DNA from: Nocardiopsis potens DSM 45234
Lineage (GTDB): Bacteria > Actinomycetota > Actinomycetes > Streptosporangiales > Streptosporangiaceae
Direction: 5' to 3'
NCBI RefSeq assembly: GCF_000341105.1
Contig: NZ_ANBB01000055.1
Coordinates: 44,539 to 108,538, forward strand
Length of the DNA stretch: 64,000 nucleotides
Shown here: in pieces, positions 3,367 to 31,173 of the stretch
Numbering within the stretch: the stretch's first letter is position 1
Layout of the letters: each line of letters starts with the position of its first letter
Made by a program: the position numbers and the translations under genes
Notes under the pieces: model-generated
Told to the model about the DNA's origin: nothing
The model's input: only the letters and a program-made list of their open reading frames with translations
Database searches by the model: none

Positions 3367-3432
3367 GCGATGATCTTGACGTTCCGGGCCTATCAACGCG
3401 GATTGATAGGCCCGGAACGTCAAGATCATCGC
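3367..3432. repeat. REP-like perfect palindrome (copy 1 of a three-member family); likely bidirectional terminator between convergent genes
   Basis: GCGATGATCTTGACGTTCCGGGCCTATCAACGCGGATTGATAGGCCCGGAACGTCAAGATCATCGC is a perfect inverted repeat around a 4-nt centre. It lies between the stop codons of convergent CDSs (3332 and 3441). The same architecture recurs at 6232..6301 and 7925..7980. Confidence 0.7.
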
Positions 3433-5325: not shown

Positions 5326-5423
5326 CTCCCGCCCCGGGGCGGCGCCGGGCCCCGCGCCGAGCGGCGCCGGGCCGGTCAGAGGGTCTCCCGGGGACCCGCG
5401 GACCGGCCCGGCGGAGGCGCCGG

Positions 5424-6104: not shown

Positions 6105-6231
6105 GCGCCTCTCCTCACTGCCGGAAGCCCTCGGTCGTACGGCGTATGATCGTACGCCGTACGGGATTGGAACGCGGCGACCCCGCCCCTTGTTCCCGGA
6201 CGGGGGATCGAATTCGGAAGAATCTCCGGCA

Positions 6232-6301
6232 CCCCGATGATCTTGACGCTGCGGGCCTGTCAGAACGCTCTGACAGGCCCGCAGCGTCAAGATCATCGGG
6301 G
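6232..6301. repeat. REP-like palindrome (copy 2)
   Basis: CCCCGATGATCTTGACGCTGCGGGCCTGTCAGAACGCTCTGACAGGCCCGCAGCGTCAAGATCATCGGGG is a perfect palindrome with the same GATGATCTTGACG...CGTCAAGATCATC ends as copy 1. It lies just downstream of the 6315..6569 gene. Confidence 0.7.
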
Positions 6302-6314
6302 AGGGCGGCCGCGG

Positions 6315-7909: not shown

Positions 7910-7924
7910 GCGGACCCGGGCGAA

Positions 7925-7980
7925 GATCTCGACGCCGCGGCCCTGCCAGAGCGTTCTGGCAGGGCCGCGGCATCGAGATC
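7925..7980. repeat. REP-like palindrome (copy 3, diverged)
   Basis: GATCTCGACGCCGCGGCCCTGCCAGAGCGTTCTGGCAGGGCCGCGGCATCGAGATC has one mismatch between the arms. Same architecture as copies 1 and 2 (GATCT(T/C)GACG ... CCTG(T/C)CAGA). It lies between convergent genes 7909 and 8047. Confidence 0.65.
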
Positions 7981-8046
7981 ACCGGGAGGAGCGGGCCCCG
8001 GCGGGGGCGCACCCCGCCGGGGCCCGGCCGGTTCCGGGGCTCCGGG

Positions 8047-18928: not shown

Positions 18929-20305
18929 ATGGCTCCGCACGAGGCCGGCCGCGCCGCCGAGGGGCGCCCGGACGACGTCTACGCCGCGCCGCTGAGCGGG
19001 GAGCCGCTGCCCCGCCACCGGATGCCCGACCGGGAGGCCGACCCCCGGGTCGCCTACGCGCTGGTGCGCGACGAGCTCTCGCTGGACGGCGACTCCTCGC
19101 AGAACCTCGCCACCTTCTGCACCACCTGGGCCGAGGAGGAGGCCCGGCGGCTGACGGCGGAGAACCTCGACAAGAACATGATCGACAAGGACGAGTACCC
19201 GCAGACCGCGGAGATCGAGTCGCGCTGCGTGCGCATCCTCGCCGACCTGTGGAACTCCCCCGACCCCCGGAACACCGTCGGCTGCTCCACCACGGGCTCC
19301 AGCGAGGCGGCCATGCTCGGCGGCCTCGCGCTGAAGTGGCGGTGGCGGGAGCGCCGGCGCGCCGCCGGGGCCGACGCCTCCCGGCCCAACCTGGTCTGCG
19401 GGCCGGTCCAGATCTGCTGGGAGAAGTTCGCCCGCTACTTCGACGTGGAGCTGCGCCGGGTGCCCCTGGAGGAGGGGGAGACCGGGCTGCGCCCGCACCA
19501 GCTCCGCGCCTACGTCGACGAGAACACCATCGGCGTGGTCGGCATCCTGGGCGTCACCTACACCTGCGACTACGAGCCGATCGCCGGGCTGGCGGCGGAG
19601 CTGGACGCGATCCAGCAGGACACCGGCCTCGACGTCCCGCTGCACGTGGACGCCGCCAGCGGCGGCTTCGTCGCCCCGTTCTGCGATCCCGGGCTGGAGT
19701 GGGACTTCCGCCTGGAGCGGGTCGCCTCGATCAACGCCTCCGGGCACAAGTACGGGCTGGCGCCGCTGGGCGTCGGCTGGGCGGTGTGGCGCACCGCCGA
19801 CCTGCTCCCCGATGACCTGGTCTTCCAGGTGGACTACCTCGGCGGCGACATGCCGACGTTCGCGCTCAACTTCAGCCGCCCCGGCGGCGAGGTCATCGCG
19901 CAGTACTACCACTTCGTGCGGCTGGGCCGGGAAGGCTACCGGAAGGTCCAGCAGCGCTGCCTGGACACCGCCGCGAGGCTGGCCGAGGAGATCTCCGGCA
20001 TGGGCCCGTTCTCCCTGGTCTACCCGGGGAGCGGCGCGCTGCCCGCGGTCAGCTACACCCTCGCCGACCCGGGGGCCGGGTTCACCCTGTACGACCTGAG
20101 CGACCGGCTGCGCACCCGCGGCTGGCAGGTGCCCTCCTACCCGCTGCCGCCCGACCGGGACCGCACCGTCGTCCAGCGGGTGCTGATCCGGCACGGCGTC
20201 AGCGCCGACAAGGCGGCCCTGCTCGCCGAGGACATGCGGCGGTCACTGGAAGAGCTGTCCTCCGGCGCACGCAGTGGCGCCGAGCGGATCGGCTTCCACC
20301 ACTGA
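18929..20305 (+). CDS. gadB: Glutamate decarboxylase (PLP dependent)
   Basis: PLP-lysine motif SINASGHKYG. Group II decarboxylase family similarity throughout (NLATFCTTW, DKDEYPQTAEIE). Confidence 0.9.
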   Translation: MAPHEAGRAAEGRPDDVYAAPLSGEPLPRHRMPDREADPRVAYALVRDELSLDGDSSQNLATFCTTWAEEEARRLTAENLDKNMIDKDEYPQTAEIESRCVRILADLWNSPDPRNTVGCSTTGSSEAAMLGGLALKWRWRERRRAAGADASRPNLVCGPVQICWEKFARYFDVELRRVPLEEGETGLRPHQLRAYVDENTIGVVGILGVTYTCDYEPIAGLAAELDAIQQDTGLDVPLHVDAASGGFVAPFCDPGLEWDFRLERVASINASGHKYGLAPLGVGWAVWRTADLLPDDLVFQVDYLGGDMPTFALNFSRPGGEVIAQYYHFVRLGREGYRKVQQRCLDTAARLAEEISGMGPFSLVYPGSGALPAVSYTLADPGAGFTLYDLSDRLRTRGWQVPSYPLPPDRDRTVVQRVLIRHGVSADKAALLAEDMRRSLEELSSGARSGAERIGFHH

Positions 20306-20324
20306 AGGACGCGCAGAGACCGCA

Positions 20325-20700
20325 CCGGACCGGGGGTCGGCCGGGCGGCGACGGCAGCGGTGGGGCGTGCCGGCCGGTCGGTCGGGTGCGGCGCCCCACG
20401 GGGCGAAGGTTCAGGCCGGCGGCGATGGCAGAGGTGGGGGCGGGGCGGGCGCCTCACCCGGGCGCGGCGTCTCACGGAGTCGAGGTTCAAACCGGCGGCG
20501 ACGGCGCAGGTGGGGGCGTGGCGGAGGTGGTCGCCCGGGCTCGGCGTCTCGCGGAGTGAGGGTTCAAGCGGGCAGCGAAGGCGGGAGGGGGACCGGCCGG
20601 TCGGTCGGGCGCGGCGCCTCGCGGAGCGAAGGTCAAGACGGGCGGCGACGGCGCAGGTGGGGGCGTGGCGGGGGCGGTCACCCGGGTGCGGCCTCTTGTG
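20325..20700. repeat. Array of about five ~75-bp tandem repeats (family 1, left arm)
   Basis: Unit starts at about 20390, 20467, 20543 and 20613 (GGCG(C/T)CTC(A/G)CGGAG(C/T)GA(A/G)GGTTCAA(A/G)C(C/G)GGC(G/A)GCGA(C/A)GGCG(C/G)AGG(T/G)GGGGG...). A partial unit sits at 20328..20389. Confidence 0.7.
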
Positions 20701-21159
20701 GGGCGGGATCGCCGTGCCCGCGTCGCCCGGGCGCCGGGGCCGGCCGCCTCCGAAACCGCTACCCCTCTCTGACCTGGGTGAATACGCAGGGTGATGGCGG
20801 TGTGGGGCGCCCTGCGCACCGCGAGAGCACCCCGGTGATTCCCGGGCGCGCATCCCGGTCCGGATCGGCCCCCGGAAGCCCCGAATCGCCTCGATCGGGC
20901 CGGTGTTCGGGGGTTCGAGGCGCCCGGAAGGCCGCAAGGCAGGGGGCTGGAACCCGGGAAGGGGTGGCGGGGGAACGAGATGTCGTATTCGTCCCTCCGA
21001 TTGGCCACTCTGGGTAATCGGCGAGGGGTCGGCGGGGGGCTCGGGGCTTACTACTCGCTGGTAGATGTAAACGGGGTGCTCTCGCGGTGCGCAGGCCGCC
21101 CCTGCCTCCGCCCGATACCTGCCGCAAACCCGGCATAGGGGATAAGGCCCCCTGGTGGG

Positions 21160-21545
21160 CGCGGGCCGGGCCGGTGAACGCGGCGCCCGGCCCCCCTCCC
21201 GCCCTCGCCGCCCGCTTGAACCCCCGCCCCGTGAGGCGCCGCGCCCGGGCGATCGCCTCCGCTCCGCCCCCACTGGCGCCGTCGCTGCCCGTCTTGACCT
21301 TCGCTCTGCGGGGCGCCGCGCCCGGCCGACCGGCCGGTCCCCCTCCCGCCTTCGCTGCCCGCTTGAACCTCCGCTCCGTGAGGCGCCGCGCCCGGCTGGA
21401 GTGCCAAGCCCCGCCCCTACCTCCGCCGTCGCCGCCTGCTTGAACCTGCACTCCGTGAGGCGCCGCGCTCGGCCGACCGGCCGGTCCCCCTCCCGCCTTC
21501 GCTGCCCGCTTGAACCCCCGCCCCGCGAGGCGCCGCGCTTGACCG
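21160..21545. repeat. Array of ~75-bp tandem repeats (family 1, right arm; reverse complement of the left arm)
   Basis: Units of the form ...TCCCGCCTTCGCTGCCCGCTTGAACC(T/C)CCGC(T/C)CCGTGAGGCGCCGCGCCCGG... are the reverse complement of the 20325..20700 units. Together with the inner inverted repeat (20804..20834 vs 21072..21102) they form a ~1.2-kb imperfect palindrome around a unique ~236-bp core. Confidence 0.7.
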
Positions 21546-21586
21546 GAGGGCTCGTCCCACTCCTACCTGTTTCGCGTCGTTGCAGG

Positions 21587-22939
21587 TCAGGGCTCCAGGC
21601 GTTCCAGGGCGACCAGGTAGCCCTCGCTGTAGGTGGGGAACTGGGCGATGCCGTCGGTGAGTCGGTCGATCGGGATTCGCTCGCGGATCGCCAGAGCTGC
21701 GGAGTGGATCCACTCGCCCGCCATCGGGGCGAGGGCCCAGGCGCCGAGGAGCACCCCGTGTCGGTGGTCGGCCAGCACCCCGAGACGGCCGGTGGGGGAG
21801 GTGGAGTAGGTCCACGGCCGGGCCAGTTCGGCGGTCAGGTCGATCTCTGCGTAGGAGGTCTTCAGCCCCATCTCCCGGGCCTGGGCCGGGGTGAGGCCGA
21901 CCGCGGCCGCCTCGGGGTCGGTGAACAGCACCCGGGGCACCCCGGTGTAGTCGGCGTGGCGCTCGCGGCCGAGCAGGTTGTCGGCGACCACCCGGCCCTG
22001 GTATTTCGCCACGTGGGTGAGGAGCGCGGTGCCGGTGGCGTCGCCGACCGCCCACAGCCCTTCGGCGACGCGGCACCGGTCGTCCACCTCCACCCCGCGC
22101 CGGCCCACCGGCACCCCCAGCTCCTCCAGGCCCAGACCGGAGGTGTTCGGCACCCGACCAGTGGCGGCCAGCACCACCTCCGCGGAGACCTCGCCGCCCC
22201 CGTCCAGCTCCAGCACCGCCGACCCGTCGGCGGTGCGGCGGGCCCGCCGCACCGCGGTGCCGGTGCGCACGTCCGCCCCGTCGGCGCGGAGCGCCTCGGC
22301 CACCGCCGCGCCGAGCCGCGGGTCCTCCCGGCCGAGCAGGTGGCCGCCGCGCTCCAGCAGCACCACCCGGGCGCCCATCCGGACGAGGAACTGGCCCATC
22401 TCCACCGCGACCGCGCCGCCGCCGATCACCGCGACCGAGGACGGGATCCGGTCCAGCGCGGTCGCCTCCCGGTTGGTCCACACCTCGACCGAGTCCAGCC
22501 CCTCCACCGGCGGCACCAGCGGCGACGACCCGGTGGCCAGCACCACCTCCGGCGCGGTCAGCTCCCGCCCCGCCGCCACCCGCCACGGGTCGCGCCCGGT
22601 CAGCCGGGCTTCGCCCTTGACCACCTCGACGCCCTGCTCCTCGTACCCTGCGACCTGCCGGGAGTCGTCGCGGTGGCGCACCATGGCGTCCCGGTAGTCG
22701 CGGATCCCCTCCCAGTCCAGGGCGGGCTCCGCGGTCCCGGCCGCGCCCCGCGCCTCGGCCCGCACCTCGGGAGGGCGCAGCAGCGCCTTGGACGGGATGC
22801 ACGCGTAGTAGCCGCACTCCCCGCCGATCAGCTCCTTCTCCACCACGGCCACCCGCCGCCCGGCGGCGGCCAGCCGGGAGGCGACCGTCTCCCCGCCCGG
22901 CCCCATCCCGATGACGATCGCGTCGAACCGCTCCACCAT
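21587..22939 (-). CDS. FAD-dependent pyridine nucleotide-disulfide oxidoreductase (dihydrolipoamide dehydrogenase / mycothione reductase-like)
   Basis: FAD-binding GMGPGG motif, redox-active CxxxxC (GGECGYYACIPSK), NAD-binding GGGAVAVE, and C-terminal dimerisation domain with HP..E-like residues. Confidence 0.8.
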   Translation of the reverse strand: MVERFDAIVIGMGPGGETVASRLAAAGRRVAVVEKELIGGECGYYACIPSKALLRPPEVRAEARGAAGTAEPALDWEGIRDYRDAMVRHRDDSRQVAGYEEQGVEVVKGEARLTGRDPWRVAAGRELTAPEVVLATGSSPLVPPVEGLDSVEVWTNREATALDRIPSSVAVIGGGAVAVEMGQFLVRMGARVVLLERGGHLLGREDPRLGAAVAEALRADGADVRTGTAVRRARRTADGSAVLELDGGGEVSAEVVLAATGRVPNTSGLGLEELGVPVGRRGVEVDDRCRVAEGLWAVGDATGTALLTHVAKYQGRVVADNLLGRERHADYTGVPRVLFTDPEAAAVGLTPAQAREMGLKTSYAEIDLTAELARPWTYSTSPTGRLGVLADHRHGVLLGAWALAPMAGEWIHSAALAIRERIPIDRLTDGIAQFPTYSEGYLVALERLEP

Positions 22940-29744: not shown

Positions 29745-31173
29745 TCAGGAGCCCTCTCGGCCGATCTCCACGTGCTCCAGGATCCCCAGCGCGTCCGGCA
29801 CCAGCACCGCGGCCGAGTAGTAGGTGCTGACCAGGTAGGAGATGATCGCCTTCTCGCTGATGCCCATGAAGCGCACGGACACCCCGGGCTCGTACTCGTC
29901 CGGCAGGCCGGTCTGGTTCAGGCCGACCACGCCCTGGTTCTCCTCGCCGGCGCGCATCAGCATGATGGAGGAGGTGCGGGTGGAGGAGACCGGGATCTTG
30001 TTGCACGGGAAGATCGGCACCCCGCGCCAGGCCGGGACGTGGTTCCCGGCGTACTCCACGCTCTGCGGGTAGATGCCGCGCTCGGAGCACTCCCGGCCGA
30101 ACGCGGCGATGGCGCGCGGGTGGGCGAGGAAGAACGTGGGCTCCTTCCACACCAGGCTGAGCAGCTCGTCCATGTCGTCGGGGGTGGGCGGCCCGGTGCG
30201 GGTGGGGATGCGCTGGGACATGTCCGCGTTGTGCAGCAGCCCGATCTCGCGGTTGTTGACCATCTCGTGCTCCTGGCGCTCGCGCAGCGCCTCGATGGTC
30301 AGCCGGAGCTGCTCGCCGACCTGGCTCATCGGCTCGTTGTAGAGGTCGGCGACCCGGGTGTGCACGCGCAGCACGGTCTGCGCGACGCTCAGCTCGTACT
30401 CGCGCGGGGAGAGCTCGTAGTCGACGAATGTGCCGGGCAGGTCGGGCTCGCCGGTGTGCCCGGAGGACATGCCGATCGCGGCCTCGCCGTGCTCGTTGCT
30501 CGGGGTGTCCCGGCCGGCGAGGAACGCCGACACGTGCTCGCGCAGCGCCGGGGAGTTCTCCGCGACCTGCTGGAAGTCCGACCGGTGCAGCGAGAGCACG
30601 GTGGTCGCGGTGACCGCCTTGACGGTGATCTCCCACCGGTCGTCCTCGTCGACGAGGGAGAGGTCGCCGAAGTGGTCGCCGCCGACCAGGGTCTCCAGCA
30701 CGACGGGGTCGCCGAACTCGCCGGTGCCGATCTCGTTGGCCTTGCCGTGCGCGATCAGGTGGACGTGCTCGGCCGCGTCGCCCGCCTGCACGATGGGCTC
30801 GCCCGCCGCGTACTCCCGCTGCTCGAAGCGGTCGGCCAGCGCGGCGAGCGGGGCGTCGTCCTCGAAGCCGCGGAGCAGCGGCAGTTCGCGCAGCTCCTGC
30901 GGGACGACCGAGATGTCGGCGCCGGTGTTGGTGAAGGAGACCCGGCCGTCGCCCACCACGCAGCTGAGCCGGCGGTTCACCCGGTAGGCGCCGCCGGCGG
31001 TGCGCACCCAGGGCAGCAGGCGCAGCAGCCACCGCGAGGAGATCTCCTGCATCTGCGGCGGGGTCTTGGTGGTCGTCGCCAGGTTGCGTGCGGCCGCCGT
31101 CCCCAGGCTGAGTCGGGACTGCTCGGCACCGCCGCTCTGCGCGCCGCTCTCGGATTCGAGCTGCTCGGTCACA
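29745..31173 (-). CDS. Family 2B encapsulin nanocompartment shell protein (shell component 2)
   Basis: Paralog of 26059..27492 with the same cNMP-binding-like insertion and C-terminal blocks. Start assigned to the GTG at 31173 by alignment with the paralog N-terminus (..TTTKTPPQ..SxRWLLR(M/L)LPWV). Stop is 6 nt upstream of the terpene cyclase start. Confidence 0.65.

What the first reader, a model, noticed from the sequence alone, without database searches (positions are those of the whole stretch)
20325..21545. 1.2-kb non-coding imperfect palindrome built from inverted arrays of ~75-bp tandem repeats around a unique 236-bp core
Between convergent gadB and the FAD oxidoreductase there is no credible gene. 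The left arm (20325..20700) has about five direct repeats of a ~75-bp unit (periods 77, 76 and 70). The right arm (21160..21545) carries the reverse complement of the same units. A further 31-bp inverted repeat (20804..20834 and 21072..21102, one mismatch) brackets a unique core containing CTGGTAGATGTAAACGG. The whole region could fold into a very long hairpin or cruciform. The architecture resembles a MITE-like, foldback-type or otherwise mobile non-autonomous element, or an invertible or regulatory DNA structure, and is not explained by any annotated feature. The Gly/Arg-rich ORFs reading through the repeats on both strands are mirror images of each other and are most likely non-coding.
Basis: seen in the sequence. 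Interest (0 to 1): 0.7.

Follow-up and report, generated by a model that had tools for sequence, protein, structure and literature searches.

The report
Foldback-type repeat element family in Nocardiopsis
The 1.3-kb non-coding palindrome between two convergent genes of Nocardiopsis potens is one old, end-trimmed copy of an apparently undescribed family of large hairpin-shaped repeat elements, with at least 26 full copies in a sister genome, that looks like selfish mobile DNA built like the foldback transposons of eukaryotes.

Summary
The intergenic 20306..21586 holds 4-5 direct ~75-bp units, 5 inverted units, a 31-bp inner inverted repeat and a 237-bp asymmetric core. It has no coding signal. 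The core is not unique in the genome. Nocardiopsis sp. CNT-189 carries at least 26 full copies with the same layout, spread over its chromosome. One of them lies at the orthologous gadB/FAD-oxidoreductase site. A metagenomic relative has another copy. All classifiable copies are intergenic and none lies between divergent genes. Some copies end in ~27-nt terminal inverted repeats. These repeats equal the arms of a dispersed ~60-bp perfect palindrome, of which the window holds three. At one orthologous site a relative has only that small palindrome where CNT-189 has the big element. Some paralogues are more alike (95%) than the orthologous pair (83%), so amplification or conversion continued after speciation. 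The interior lies in either orientation relative to the terminal modules. There is no Rfam hit, promoter, terminator, RNA covariation, plasmid or phage match. Best reading: a new foldback-type, non-autonomous repeat element. The window copy is old and lacks its termini. The mobilising enzyme and any target-site duplication remain unknown.

The parts
18929..20305 (+). Flanking gene gadB (glutamate decarboxylase). It is not part of the element. Its stop codon lies about 14 nt before the element remnant.
   Evidence: 100% identical to N. potens glutamate decarboxylase, PF00282. The C-terminus is conserved with orthologues that lack the element.
20306..20377 (+). Left terminal remnant. It holds the tail of a type-1 terminal module (agaccgcaccggaccggggg) and one degenerate outermost unit (about 20334-20356). 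The terminal inverted repeat and about 60 nt of the module are missing.
   Evidence: Comparison by eye with complete ends of other copies. 88% identical to the orthologous copy L074.
20378..20700 (+). Left (u) arm: four units of 70-77 bp with the G-rich strand reading towards the core. Motif starts at 20408, 20484, 20561 and 20631.
   Evidence: The unit consensus is GGGCGCGGCGCC.CACGG.GCG..GGTTCAAGCGGGCGGCGACGGCG, from 205 units in 29 copies.
20701..20803 (+). Left linker between the array and the inner inverted repeat. It is weakly symmetrical with the right linker.
   Evidence: Family alignment. 88% identical to L074.
20804..20834 (+). Inner inverted repeat, left arm (GGGGCGCCCTGCGCACCGCGAGAGCACCCCG). 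It is the best-conserved block of the family.
   Evidence: The block CCTGCGCACCGCGAGA is at least 92% conserved in the other 25 aligned copies.
20835..21071 (+). Asymmetric core. Conserved blocks are CATCCCGG (20851-20858), CCACTCTG (21005-21012), CTACTCGC (21051-21058) and GGTAGATGT (21060-21068). This copy has an 11-nt deletion relative to the other copies.
   Evidence: Aligns full-length to 26 other copies at 69-85%. No Rfam hit. No promoter or terminator.
21072..21102 (-). Inner inverted repeat, right arm. In this copy its centre (CTCTCGCG) is fully complementary to the left arm, unlike most copies including the orthologue.
   Evidence: 81% identical to L074 against 94% for the left arm.
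21103..21183 (+). Right linker.
21184..21545 (-). Right (d) arm: five units, the reverse complement of the left-arm units. Motifs at 21200, 21277, 21347, 21424 and 21494.
21546..21586 (-). Right terminal remnant: the tail of a type-2 terminal module (ctgcaacgacgcgaaacaggtaggagtgggacgagccctccgg). The terminal inverted repeat is missing. It abuts the stop codon of the next gene.
   Evidence: Similarity, judged by eye, to type-2 modules of L029, L037, L046 and L068. 100% identical to L074.
21587..22939 (-). Flanking gene for an FAD/NAD(P) oxidoreductase. Its orthologue in L083 carries Pfam Pyr_redox_2. It is not part of the element.
   Evidence: ORF list. The C-terminus is conserved with the L083 orthologue.
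3369..3430 (.). Small ~62-bp perfect palindrome of the related family. Its arms match the terminal inverted repeats of complete big elements. It lies between convergent genes.
   Evidence: Folds at -44.6 kcal/mol, z = -13.4. Context.
6236..6297 (.). Second small palindrome of the same family.
7922..7983 (.). Third, more degenerate small palindrome. It lies between convergent genes.

Best explanation
The region is one copy of a multi-copy, non-coding, foldback-type repeat element of the Nocardiopsis potens / CNT-189 lineage. A complete copy is 1.1-1.7 kb. Reading inwards, it has a ~27-30-nt terminal inverted repeat (GATGATCTYGACGTTG...), a ~100-nt terminal module, an array of 2-11 alternating 70/77-bp units, a ~100-bp linker, a conserved inner inverted repeat, and a ~240-290-bp asymmetric core. 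The same parts then follow in reverse on the other side. Shown: the family is dispersed and strictly intergenic, and none of the classifiable copies lies between divergent genes. Shown: each side of a copy resembles the same side of other copies rather than its own partner arm. Shown: the window copy sits at the same site in N. potens and CNT-189 and has lost both termini up to the stop codons of the flanking genes. Shown: arrays change unit number, and the interior occurs in both orientations relative to the terminal modules. Shown: the sites where the two orthologous copies differ are mainly sites that vary among paralogues. Inferred: the element is selfish, non-autonomous mobile DNA that enters palindromic, terminator-like sites downstream of genes. 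It may be moved by an enzyme acting in trans that recognises the termini it shares with the ~60-bp palindromes. Alternatively it may be copied by recombinational repair into the centre of such palindromes. Inferred: at this locus its effect is that of a large hairpin-forming spacer or transcription barrier between two convergent genes, not a gene or a switch.
For: Family and architecture: 27 CNT-189 loci hit, at least 26 complete copies, always + units, then 590-700 bp, then - units, spread from 0.17 to 6.79 Mb. The core aligns full-length to all of them. One more copy lies in a metagenome contig. Orthology: L074 flanks are 88-92% identical to the window and the element is present there. Non-coding. 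Termini: terminal inverted repeats and two module types on some copies, and the same ~27-nt sequence forms the arms of dispersed ~60-bp palindromes. Presence/absence: at the site of the L036 element, relative L085 has an intact small palindrome and no big element, and the right junction falls at the same nucleotide. Activity after speciation: paralogue pairs reach 95% and 92% core identity against 83% for the orthologous pair. Unit-wise propagation: u-arms match other u-arms best and d-arms other d-arms, never their own partner. Interior orientation: L014 versus L072 shows about 1045 bp inverted between co-linear ~100-bp ends, and the two copies with the minority configuration are not sisters. 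Context: 8 convergent, 8 tandem and 0 divergent among 16 classifiable. Neutral-or-faster evolution at this locus: third codon positions 90-92% identical, element 83%, arrays 76-80% with many gaps.
Against: No target-site duplication could be defined. Flanks next to the termini tend to be complementary rather than direct repeats (sequences, compared by eye). No transposase or autonomous partner was found, though only about 4% of the CNT-189 genome was readable. Only about 10 of 27 copies keep any terminal inverted repeat, and even the youngest subfamily (L036, L006, L041) differs in this respect. The terminal repeats of L036 are only about 55-70% like the L085 palindrome (compared by eye), so the polarity of that filled/empty pair is unresolved. 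An adjacent 1.5-kb inversion complicates it further. Several core blocks are nearly invariant among 25 copies. That could mean host function rather than cis-requirements for spread.
Confidence: 0.72

Rival explanations
1. A host-domesticated extragenic repeat, working like REP/BIME or BOX elements. The arrays and hairpins would be kept because they terminate or insulate transcription, stabilise upstream mRNAs, or bind a nucleoid or topology protein at gene 3' ends.
For: Strict intergenic location with no copy between divergent genes. Retention at the orthologous site in two species. Nearly invariant blocks in the core and inside each unit across copies. Columns conserved among paralogues are also more conserved between the orthologues (92% against 71%, Fisher p = 3.6e-5).
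Against: At the orthologous locus the element diverges as fast as or faster than third codon positions. The correlation is equally expected from ectopic gene conversion. Single units do not fold better than shuffles. No terminator-like or promoter-like site was found. The copy is absent where a close relative has only a small palindrome.
Confidence: 0.15
2. A multi-copy structured non-coding RNA gene. The core, closed by the inner inverted repeat as a long stem, would be the functional product, and the arrays would be flanking baggage.
For: The core plus inner repeat folds well (z = -5.3 on + and -5.8 on -). Conserved sequence blocks sit inside the core. A small conserved hairpin followed by TTTT lies in mid-core.
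Against: No Rfam match at E <= 1 in the window copy or in 8 other copies. RNAalifold covariation terms are only -1.24 (+) and -0.02 (-), and most pairs are invariant or change on one side only. No sigma-70-like promoter was found, and no TANNNT motif conserved across copies was seen by eye. The good fold energy comes mostly from the closing inverted repeat.
Confidence: 0.08
3. A programmed invertible DNA switch, or a replication or partition site made of iteron-like or centromere-like arrays around a lower-GC core.
For: Inverted repeats bracket a segment that is found in both orientations among copies. Inverted arrays around a core of lower GC (0.66-0.70 against 0.77-0.87 in the arms) recall iteron origins.
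Against: There are at least 26 full copies per chromosome. The element holds no coding ORF, so it carries no recombinase, rep or par gene of its own; flanking genes were not systematically annotated. No promoter lies in the core. There is no plasmid or phage match. The orientation differences are between old paralogues, not within a locus.
Confidence: 0.03

Closest known systems
Foldback (FB) elements and FB-like transposons of eukaryotes (Drosophila FB, Galileo, Tetris)
   Same: Long inverted arms built from tandem sub-repeats. Arm length varies among copies through unit number. A central non-repetitive loop. No coding capacity in most copies. Association with inversions.
   Different: This element is bacterial. 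The units are 70/77 bp, alternating between two subtypes. No target-site duplication and no transposase partner are known. It has an extra conserved inner inverted repeat and conserved core blocks. The comparison rests on published descriptions (PMC4079207, PMC3573991, PMC4168063, abstracts seen) and on my own knowledge, not on sequence similarity.
Bacterial MITEs, including MITEs that carry an internal minisatellite (Porphyromonas gingivalis MITE, PMC4596501)
   Same: Non-autonomous, multi-copy and intergenic. Terminal inverted repeats on complete copies. Internal tandem repeats.
   Different: It is 1.1-1.7 kb rather than under about 0.6 kb. The repeats form two inverted arrays that make up most of the element. 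No parent insertion sequence and no target-site duplication were identified.
REP / BIME / REPIN and BOX-type extragenic repeats
   Same: Extragenic and found at gene 3' ends. Modular mosaic structure with a variable number of modules. The associated ~60-bp perfect palindromes behave like REP-type or terminator-like hairpins.
   Different: The 75-bp units are not hairpins. The REP families surveyed in PMC3733652 have 5-13-bp stems with GTAG or CGTC tags, and that paper's text does not mention Actinobacteria. No RAYT association could be tested.
Mycobacterial interspersed repetitive units (MIRU)
   Same: Actinobacterial. Intergenic tandem repeats of similar unit size (about 46-101 bp) at tens of loci, with variable copy number.
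   Different: As I recall the literature, MIRUs are direct arrays inside operons, without a partner inverted array, core or terminal inverted repeats. No sequence comparison was made here.

Membership tests
MITE (miniature inverted-repeat transposable element) | Multiple dispersed copies with unrelated flanks | tested here: met
   At least 26 full copies across 6.8 Mb of CNT-189, plus N. potens and a metagenome relative.
MITE (miniature inverted-repeat transposable element) | Terminal inverted repeats | tested here: inconclusive
   Present at both ends in L014, L029, L037, L072 and L036, and at one end in about 5 more copies. Absent from about 17 copies, including the window copy.
MITE (miniature inverted-repeat transposable element) | Target-site duplication | tested here: inconclusive
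   No consistent direct repeat at the ends. Flanks such as CCCC...GGGG are complementary instead (sequences, compared by eye). No clean empty site was found.
MITE (miniature inverted-repeat transposable element) | No coding capacity | tested here: met
   No GC3 periodicity and no supported ORF in any copy; frame-breaking indels among copies.
MITE (miniature inverted-repeat transposable element) | Small size (usually under about 600 bp) and a related autonomous insertion sequence with the same termini | tested here: not met
   Size is 1.1-1.7 kb. No transposase with these termini was seen in the roughly 250 kb that could be read.
Foldback-type element | Long inverted arms made of tandem sub-repeats, with variable arm length and a central loop | tested here: met
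   2-6 and 2-11 units per arm, 70/77-bp periods and a conserved central core. The whole element folds as one hairpin.
Foldback-type element | Transposition shown by filled/empty sites with target-site duplication, and a dedicated transposase | tested here: inconclusive
   One site carries the big element in CNT-189 and only a small palindrome in L085. The polarity is unresolved, no target-site duplication is visible and no transposase is known.
REP/BIME/REPIN | The repeat unit is itself a short stable hairpin | tested here: not met
   The 70-77-nt units fold no better than shuffles (z = +0.2 to +1.3). Only the separate ~60-bp palindromes are hairpins (z = -13.4).
REP/BIME/REPIN | Association with a RAYT (IS200/IS605-like) transposase gene | not testable with these tools
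CRISPR array | Conserved repeats separated by unique spacers, with a leader and cas genes | tested here: not met
   The unit core is conserved and the linkers recur in two alternating subtypes, so there are no unique spacers. The arrays occur as inverted pairs at 27 loci.
Iteron origin / plasmid centromere | One or a few sites per replicon next to rep or par genes | tested here: not met
   At least 26 full chromosomal copies. The window copy is flanked by metabolic genes. No plasmid match.
Known structured RNA family (Rfam 15) | Match to a covariance model, or covariation supporting a fold | tested here: not met
   No hit at E <= 1 in 9 copies. Covariation terms are -1.24 and -0.02.
tRNA-derived repeat | tRNA-like cloverleaf in the ~75-nt units | tested here: not met
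   ARAGORN finds no tRNA or tmRNA in the window.

The most novel reading that the evidence does not exclude
These would be the first bacterial foldback elements, spreading without a classical cut-and-paste transposase. In this reading the ~1-kb interior (inverted tandem-repeat arms plus core) is copied into the dyad centre of pre-existing ~60-bp palindromes. A hairpin or cruciform break would be repaired from an ectopic copy, giving a palindrome-targeted, homing-like mechanism. That would explain four observations: the lack of target-site duplication, the shared termini, the mosaic gene-conversion pattern, and the link with local inversions and indels.
Probability: 0.2. Interest if true: 0.8.

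Novelty: new variant of a known kind. Interest (0 to 1): 0.6.

Why it matters
Large repeats of this shape, with long inverted arms made of tandem units around a conserved core, are to my knowledge described in eukaryotes (foldback transposons) but not in bacteria. A family of at least 26 full copies, showing signs of amplification or conversion after speciation, would give a tractable bacterial model for three questions: how long palindromic DNA is tolerated, how it spreads, and how it reshapes genomes. Here the elements coincide with an inversion, with gene-content differences and with a contig end. In practice such elements probably fragment short-read assemblies of Nocardiopsis, a genus mined for natural products. 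They could also be mis-called as Gly/Arg-rich ORFs. The conserved core blocks and unit motif are candidate binding sites for an unknown protein, and finding that protein would reveal the mobilisation machinery.

Tried and rejected
1. Protein-coding repeats: rejected. There is no GC3 periodicity, the unit periods are not multiples of 3, and copies differ by 1-nt indels.
2. tRNA-like units, suggested by the GGTTCAAGC motif and the ~75-nt period: rejected. ARAGORN finds nothing.
3. Known RNA family: no Rfam hit in 9 copies.
4. Conserved RNA fold: covariation is negligible on both strands.
5. Promoter or intrinsic terminator in the region: none found.
6. Plasmid or phage origin: no matches. The 16 single-strand viral hits to the terminal-repeat pattern are probably chance, because none shows the paired inverted match.
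7. Recent local palindrome formation or homogenisation of the two arms: rejected. Arms are never closest to their own partner.
8. G-quadruplex arrays: only one canonical motif in the element.
9. Flanking gene ends derived from the element: rejected. Both C-termini are conserved in orthologues that lack the element.
10. Units as reiterated copies of the terminal repeat, that is transposase-binding sites: no significant similarity.
11. dif/Xer-like site in the core (GGTGCGCA..., ATGTAAAC): only a partial resemblance seen by eye. The AAAC variant is peculiar to the window copy. Not pursued.
12. Empty site for the window locus: not obtainable. N. mwathae and Spiractinospora lack synteny. In L083 two genes lie between gadB and the oxidoreductase.
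13. N. potens DNA outside the window, and some CNT-189 proteins, were not on record.
14. Glycomyces and Nonomuraea pattern hits: only a short shared motif and no core.

Full report
OBSERVATION. The window is high-GC (74.5%). It comes from Nocardiopsis potens: the gadB product and a CPBP protease encoded in the window are 100% identical to N. potens proteins. The 1281-bp intergenic region 20306..21586 lies between gadB (18929..20305, +) and a convergent FAD/NAD(P) oxidoreductase gene (21587..22939, -).
- Tandem Repeats Finder reports 20344-20696 (period 77, 4.7 copies) and 21187-21538 (period 147, 2.4 copies; also period 70).
- The repeat finder reports arm pairs of 168-173 nt at 77-87% complementarity. 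It also reports the inner inverted repeat 20804-20834 / 21072-21102 (97%, 237 nt apart).
- BLAST of the region against the whole window aligns the arms as reverse complements (329 bp, 79.6%, E = 1.6e-79) and finds nothing outside the region.
- A 23-nt unit motif occurs 4 times on + and 5 times on -, against 0.03 expected.
- The codon-position GC signal collapses across the region, so the long Gly/Arg-rich ORFs are spurious.
- As a single strand the whole element folds as one hairpin (-551.7 kcal/mol).

IT IS A FAMILY, NOT A UNIQUE LOCUS. Even so it returned 27 loci from a single 6.83-Mb contig of Nocardiopsis sp. CNT-189.
- At least 26 of these loci hold a full copy with the same layout. There are 2-6 units on +, then 590-700 bp, then 2-11 units on -, and the G-rich strand always reads inwards.
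- The copies are spread from 0.17 to 6.79 Mb.
- The window's "unique" core aligns full-length to all of them at 69-85% identity, in either chromosomal orientation.
- One more copy lies on a soil-metagenome contig of a close relative. A unit array sits at a contig end of N. mangrovi.
- Across 29 copies, 205 units give a bimodal spacing of 70-71 and 76-77 bp. The conserved unit core is GGGCGCGGCGCC.CACGG.GCG..GGTTCAAGCGGGCGGCGACGGCG.

THE WINDOW COPY IS OLD.
- Locus L074 of CNT-189 is the orthologue. Its flanks are 88-92% identical and the element is present there.
- Third codon positions of the two flanking genes are 90-92% identical. The element is 83% identical overall. The arrays are 76-80% identical with many gaps, and the core and linkers 87-89%.
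- So at this locus the element evolves at least as fast as synonymous sites.
- In more distant relatives synteny is lost. In L083, two genes (an amino-acid permease and a DUF1706 protein) lie between gadB and the oxidoreductase.
- The C-termini of both flanking genes are conserved with orthologues that lack the element, so the genes do not end in element sequence.

TERMINI AND THE SMALL PALINDROMES.
- Outside the outermost unit, several CNT-189 copies carry a ~100-nt terminal module. It begins with GATGATCTYGACGTTG... and comes in two diverged, mutually inverted types, t1 and t2.
- The first ~27 nt equal the arm of a separate dispersed family of ~60-bp perfect palindromes. Three of these lie in the window (3369-3430, 6236-6297, 7922-7983). 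Four lie in the CNT-189 loci and one in L085. They fold at z = -13.4.
- The window copy keeps only the inner tails of t1 (left) and t2 (right), cut flush with the two stop codons.
- About 10 of 27 copies keep at least one terminal repeat, and five keep both.

A FILLED/UNFILLED SITE. The metagenome contig L085 is 89-96% identical to the flanks of the L036 copy.
- Where CNT-189 has the ~1.6-kb element, L085 has an intact 60-bp small palindrome and no trace of units or core.
- The right junction falls at the same nucleotide in both.
- The neighbouring 1.5-kb gene is inverted between the two genomes.
- The L036 termini are only about 55-70% like the L085 palindrome arms (compared by eye). So either form may have replaced the other, or both inserted independently at a preferred site. 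The polarity is unresolved.

DYNAMICS.
- In the core, the orthologous pair (window and L074) is 83% identical, while paralogue pairs reach 95% (L036-L006), 92% (L041) and 88-89%. This implies amplification or conversion after the species split.
- Each arm is most similar to the same-side arm of other copies and never to its own partner. The palindrome therefore predates the family's expansion, the element propagates as a whole, and there is no homogenisation within a copy.
- Columns that vary among the 25 other paralogues are only 71% identical between the orthologues. Conserved columns are 92% identical (p = 3.6e-5). This pattern fits ectopic gene conversion, or constraint on particular positions. 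The test cannot separate the two.
- L014 and L072 are co-linear in their ~100-bp ends but inverted over the ~1045-bp interior. The two copies with the minority configuration (L014, L029) are not sisters. So the interior has been inverted, or inserted in either orientation, more than once.
- The near-perfect 31-bp inner repeat of the window copy is a derived state shared with L047, L052 and L086. Most copies, including the orthologue, have a non-complementary centre.

CONTEXT. No copy contains a GC3-supported ORF. Of the 16 copies with classifiable neighbours, 8 lie between convergent genes, 8 between tandem genes and none between divergent genes. Counting the window and L074 as one locus, the chance of no divergent case among 15 is about 0.013 under a 25% expectation.

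WHAT IT IS NOT.
- There is no tRNA and no Rfam family in 9 copies.
- There is no promoter-like or terminator-like site.
- RNA covariation is negligible on either strand (-1.24 and -0.02).
- There is no plasmid or phage relative.
- Single units are not hairpins and do not resemble the terminal repeat.
- There is no G-quadruplex enrichment worth noting.
- Four full-text literature searches found no description of such an element in Nocardiopsis or other actinobacteria. The REP survey PMC3733652 does not mention Actinobacteria in its text.

INTERPRETATION. The best-supported reading is a new family of foldback-type, non-autonomous repeat elements. It is selfish DNA that occupies palindromic, terminator-like positions downstream of genes. 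It shares its termini with a family of small palindromes. It evolves by unit gain and loss, ectopic conversion and interior inversion. The dispersal, the architecture, the age of the window copy and the orientation variants are shown. The mode of spread is inferred: either a trans-acting enzyme or repair-mediated copying into palindrome centres. The local effect, a hairpin-forming barrier between convergent genes, is also inferred. Host-function and RNA-gene rivals are not excluded, because several core blocks and the unit core are nearly invariant among copies.

VERDICT. The element is a new variant of a known kind, closest in anatomy to eukaryotic foldback elements and to bacterial MITEs with internal minisatellites. 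Interest is moderate to high (0.6). It would rise if a transposase-independent, palindrome-targeted mechanism were demonstrated.

Noticed in passing
window 3369-3430, 6236-6297, 7922-7983: Three ~62-bp perfect palindromes (GATGATCTTGACG...CGTCAAGATCATC). The first and third lie just after stop codons between convergent genes. They are members of a dispersed family whose arms equal the terminal inverted repeats of the big elements. Their immediate flanks tend to extend the palindrome (CCCC...GGGG, CCGC...GCGG).
   Followed up: partly
window 6199-6314 and 7911-8023, compared with L103 5406-9537 and 11097-13160: Where N. potens has small palindromes #2 and #3, a close metagenomic relative has 4.1 kb and 2 kb of extra DNA, including a protein kinase gene. 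The palindromes therefore mark gene-content breakpoints. Palindrome #1 is shared, in degenerate form.
   Followed up: partly
L036 4526-6054, compared with L085 5574-7114: A 1.5-kb PQQ-repeat gene next to a big element is inverted between CNT-189 and a close relative. One breakpoint lies at the element or small-palindrome site.
   Followed up: partly
L103 4470-4567: A solo terminal module (terminal repeat plus a t1-like sequence) with no array, core or partner end. The corresponding window interval 5326-5411 lacks it.
   Followed up: no
window 30619-31126 (+): The only Rfam hit above gathering score in the window is RF02735, Sernc350 (Saccharopolyspora sRNA 350, antisense type), at 212 bits over the full model length. 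It is unrelated to the finding.
   Followed up: no
L069 2150-2340 (Glycomyces luteolus): Three tandem ~75-bp repeats that share only the short motif CGCCGCCCGCTTGAACC with the Nocardiopsis units. There is no core and no inverted partner array. This may be a distant relative or a coincidence.
   Followed up: partly
window 18929-22939, compared with L083: In a relative, gadB is followed by an amino-acid permease (possibly a glutamate/GABA antiporter) and a DUF1706 gene before the oxidoreductase. In N. potens and CNT-189 these two genes are missing and the element fills the gap.
   Followed up: no
L028 (N. mangrovi contig end); N. potens contigs of 22-108 kb: A unit array sits exactly at a contig end. 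This suggests these elements break short-read assemblies of Nocardiopsis.
   Followed up: no
window 20848-20858 and 20978-20988: A further conserved internal inverted repeat inside the core: GCGCATCCCGG and GAGATGTCGC, about 130 nt apart. It was predicted as a stem on the minus strand and is conserved in nearly all copies.
   Followed up: no
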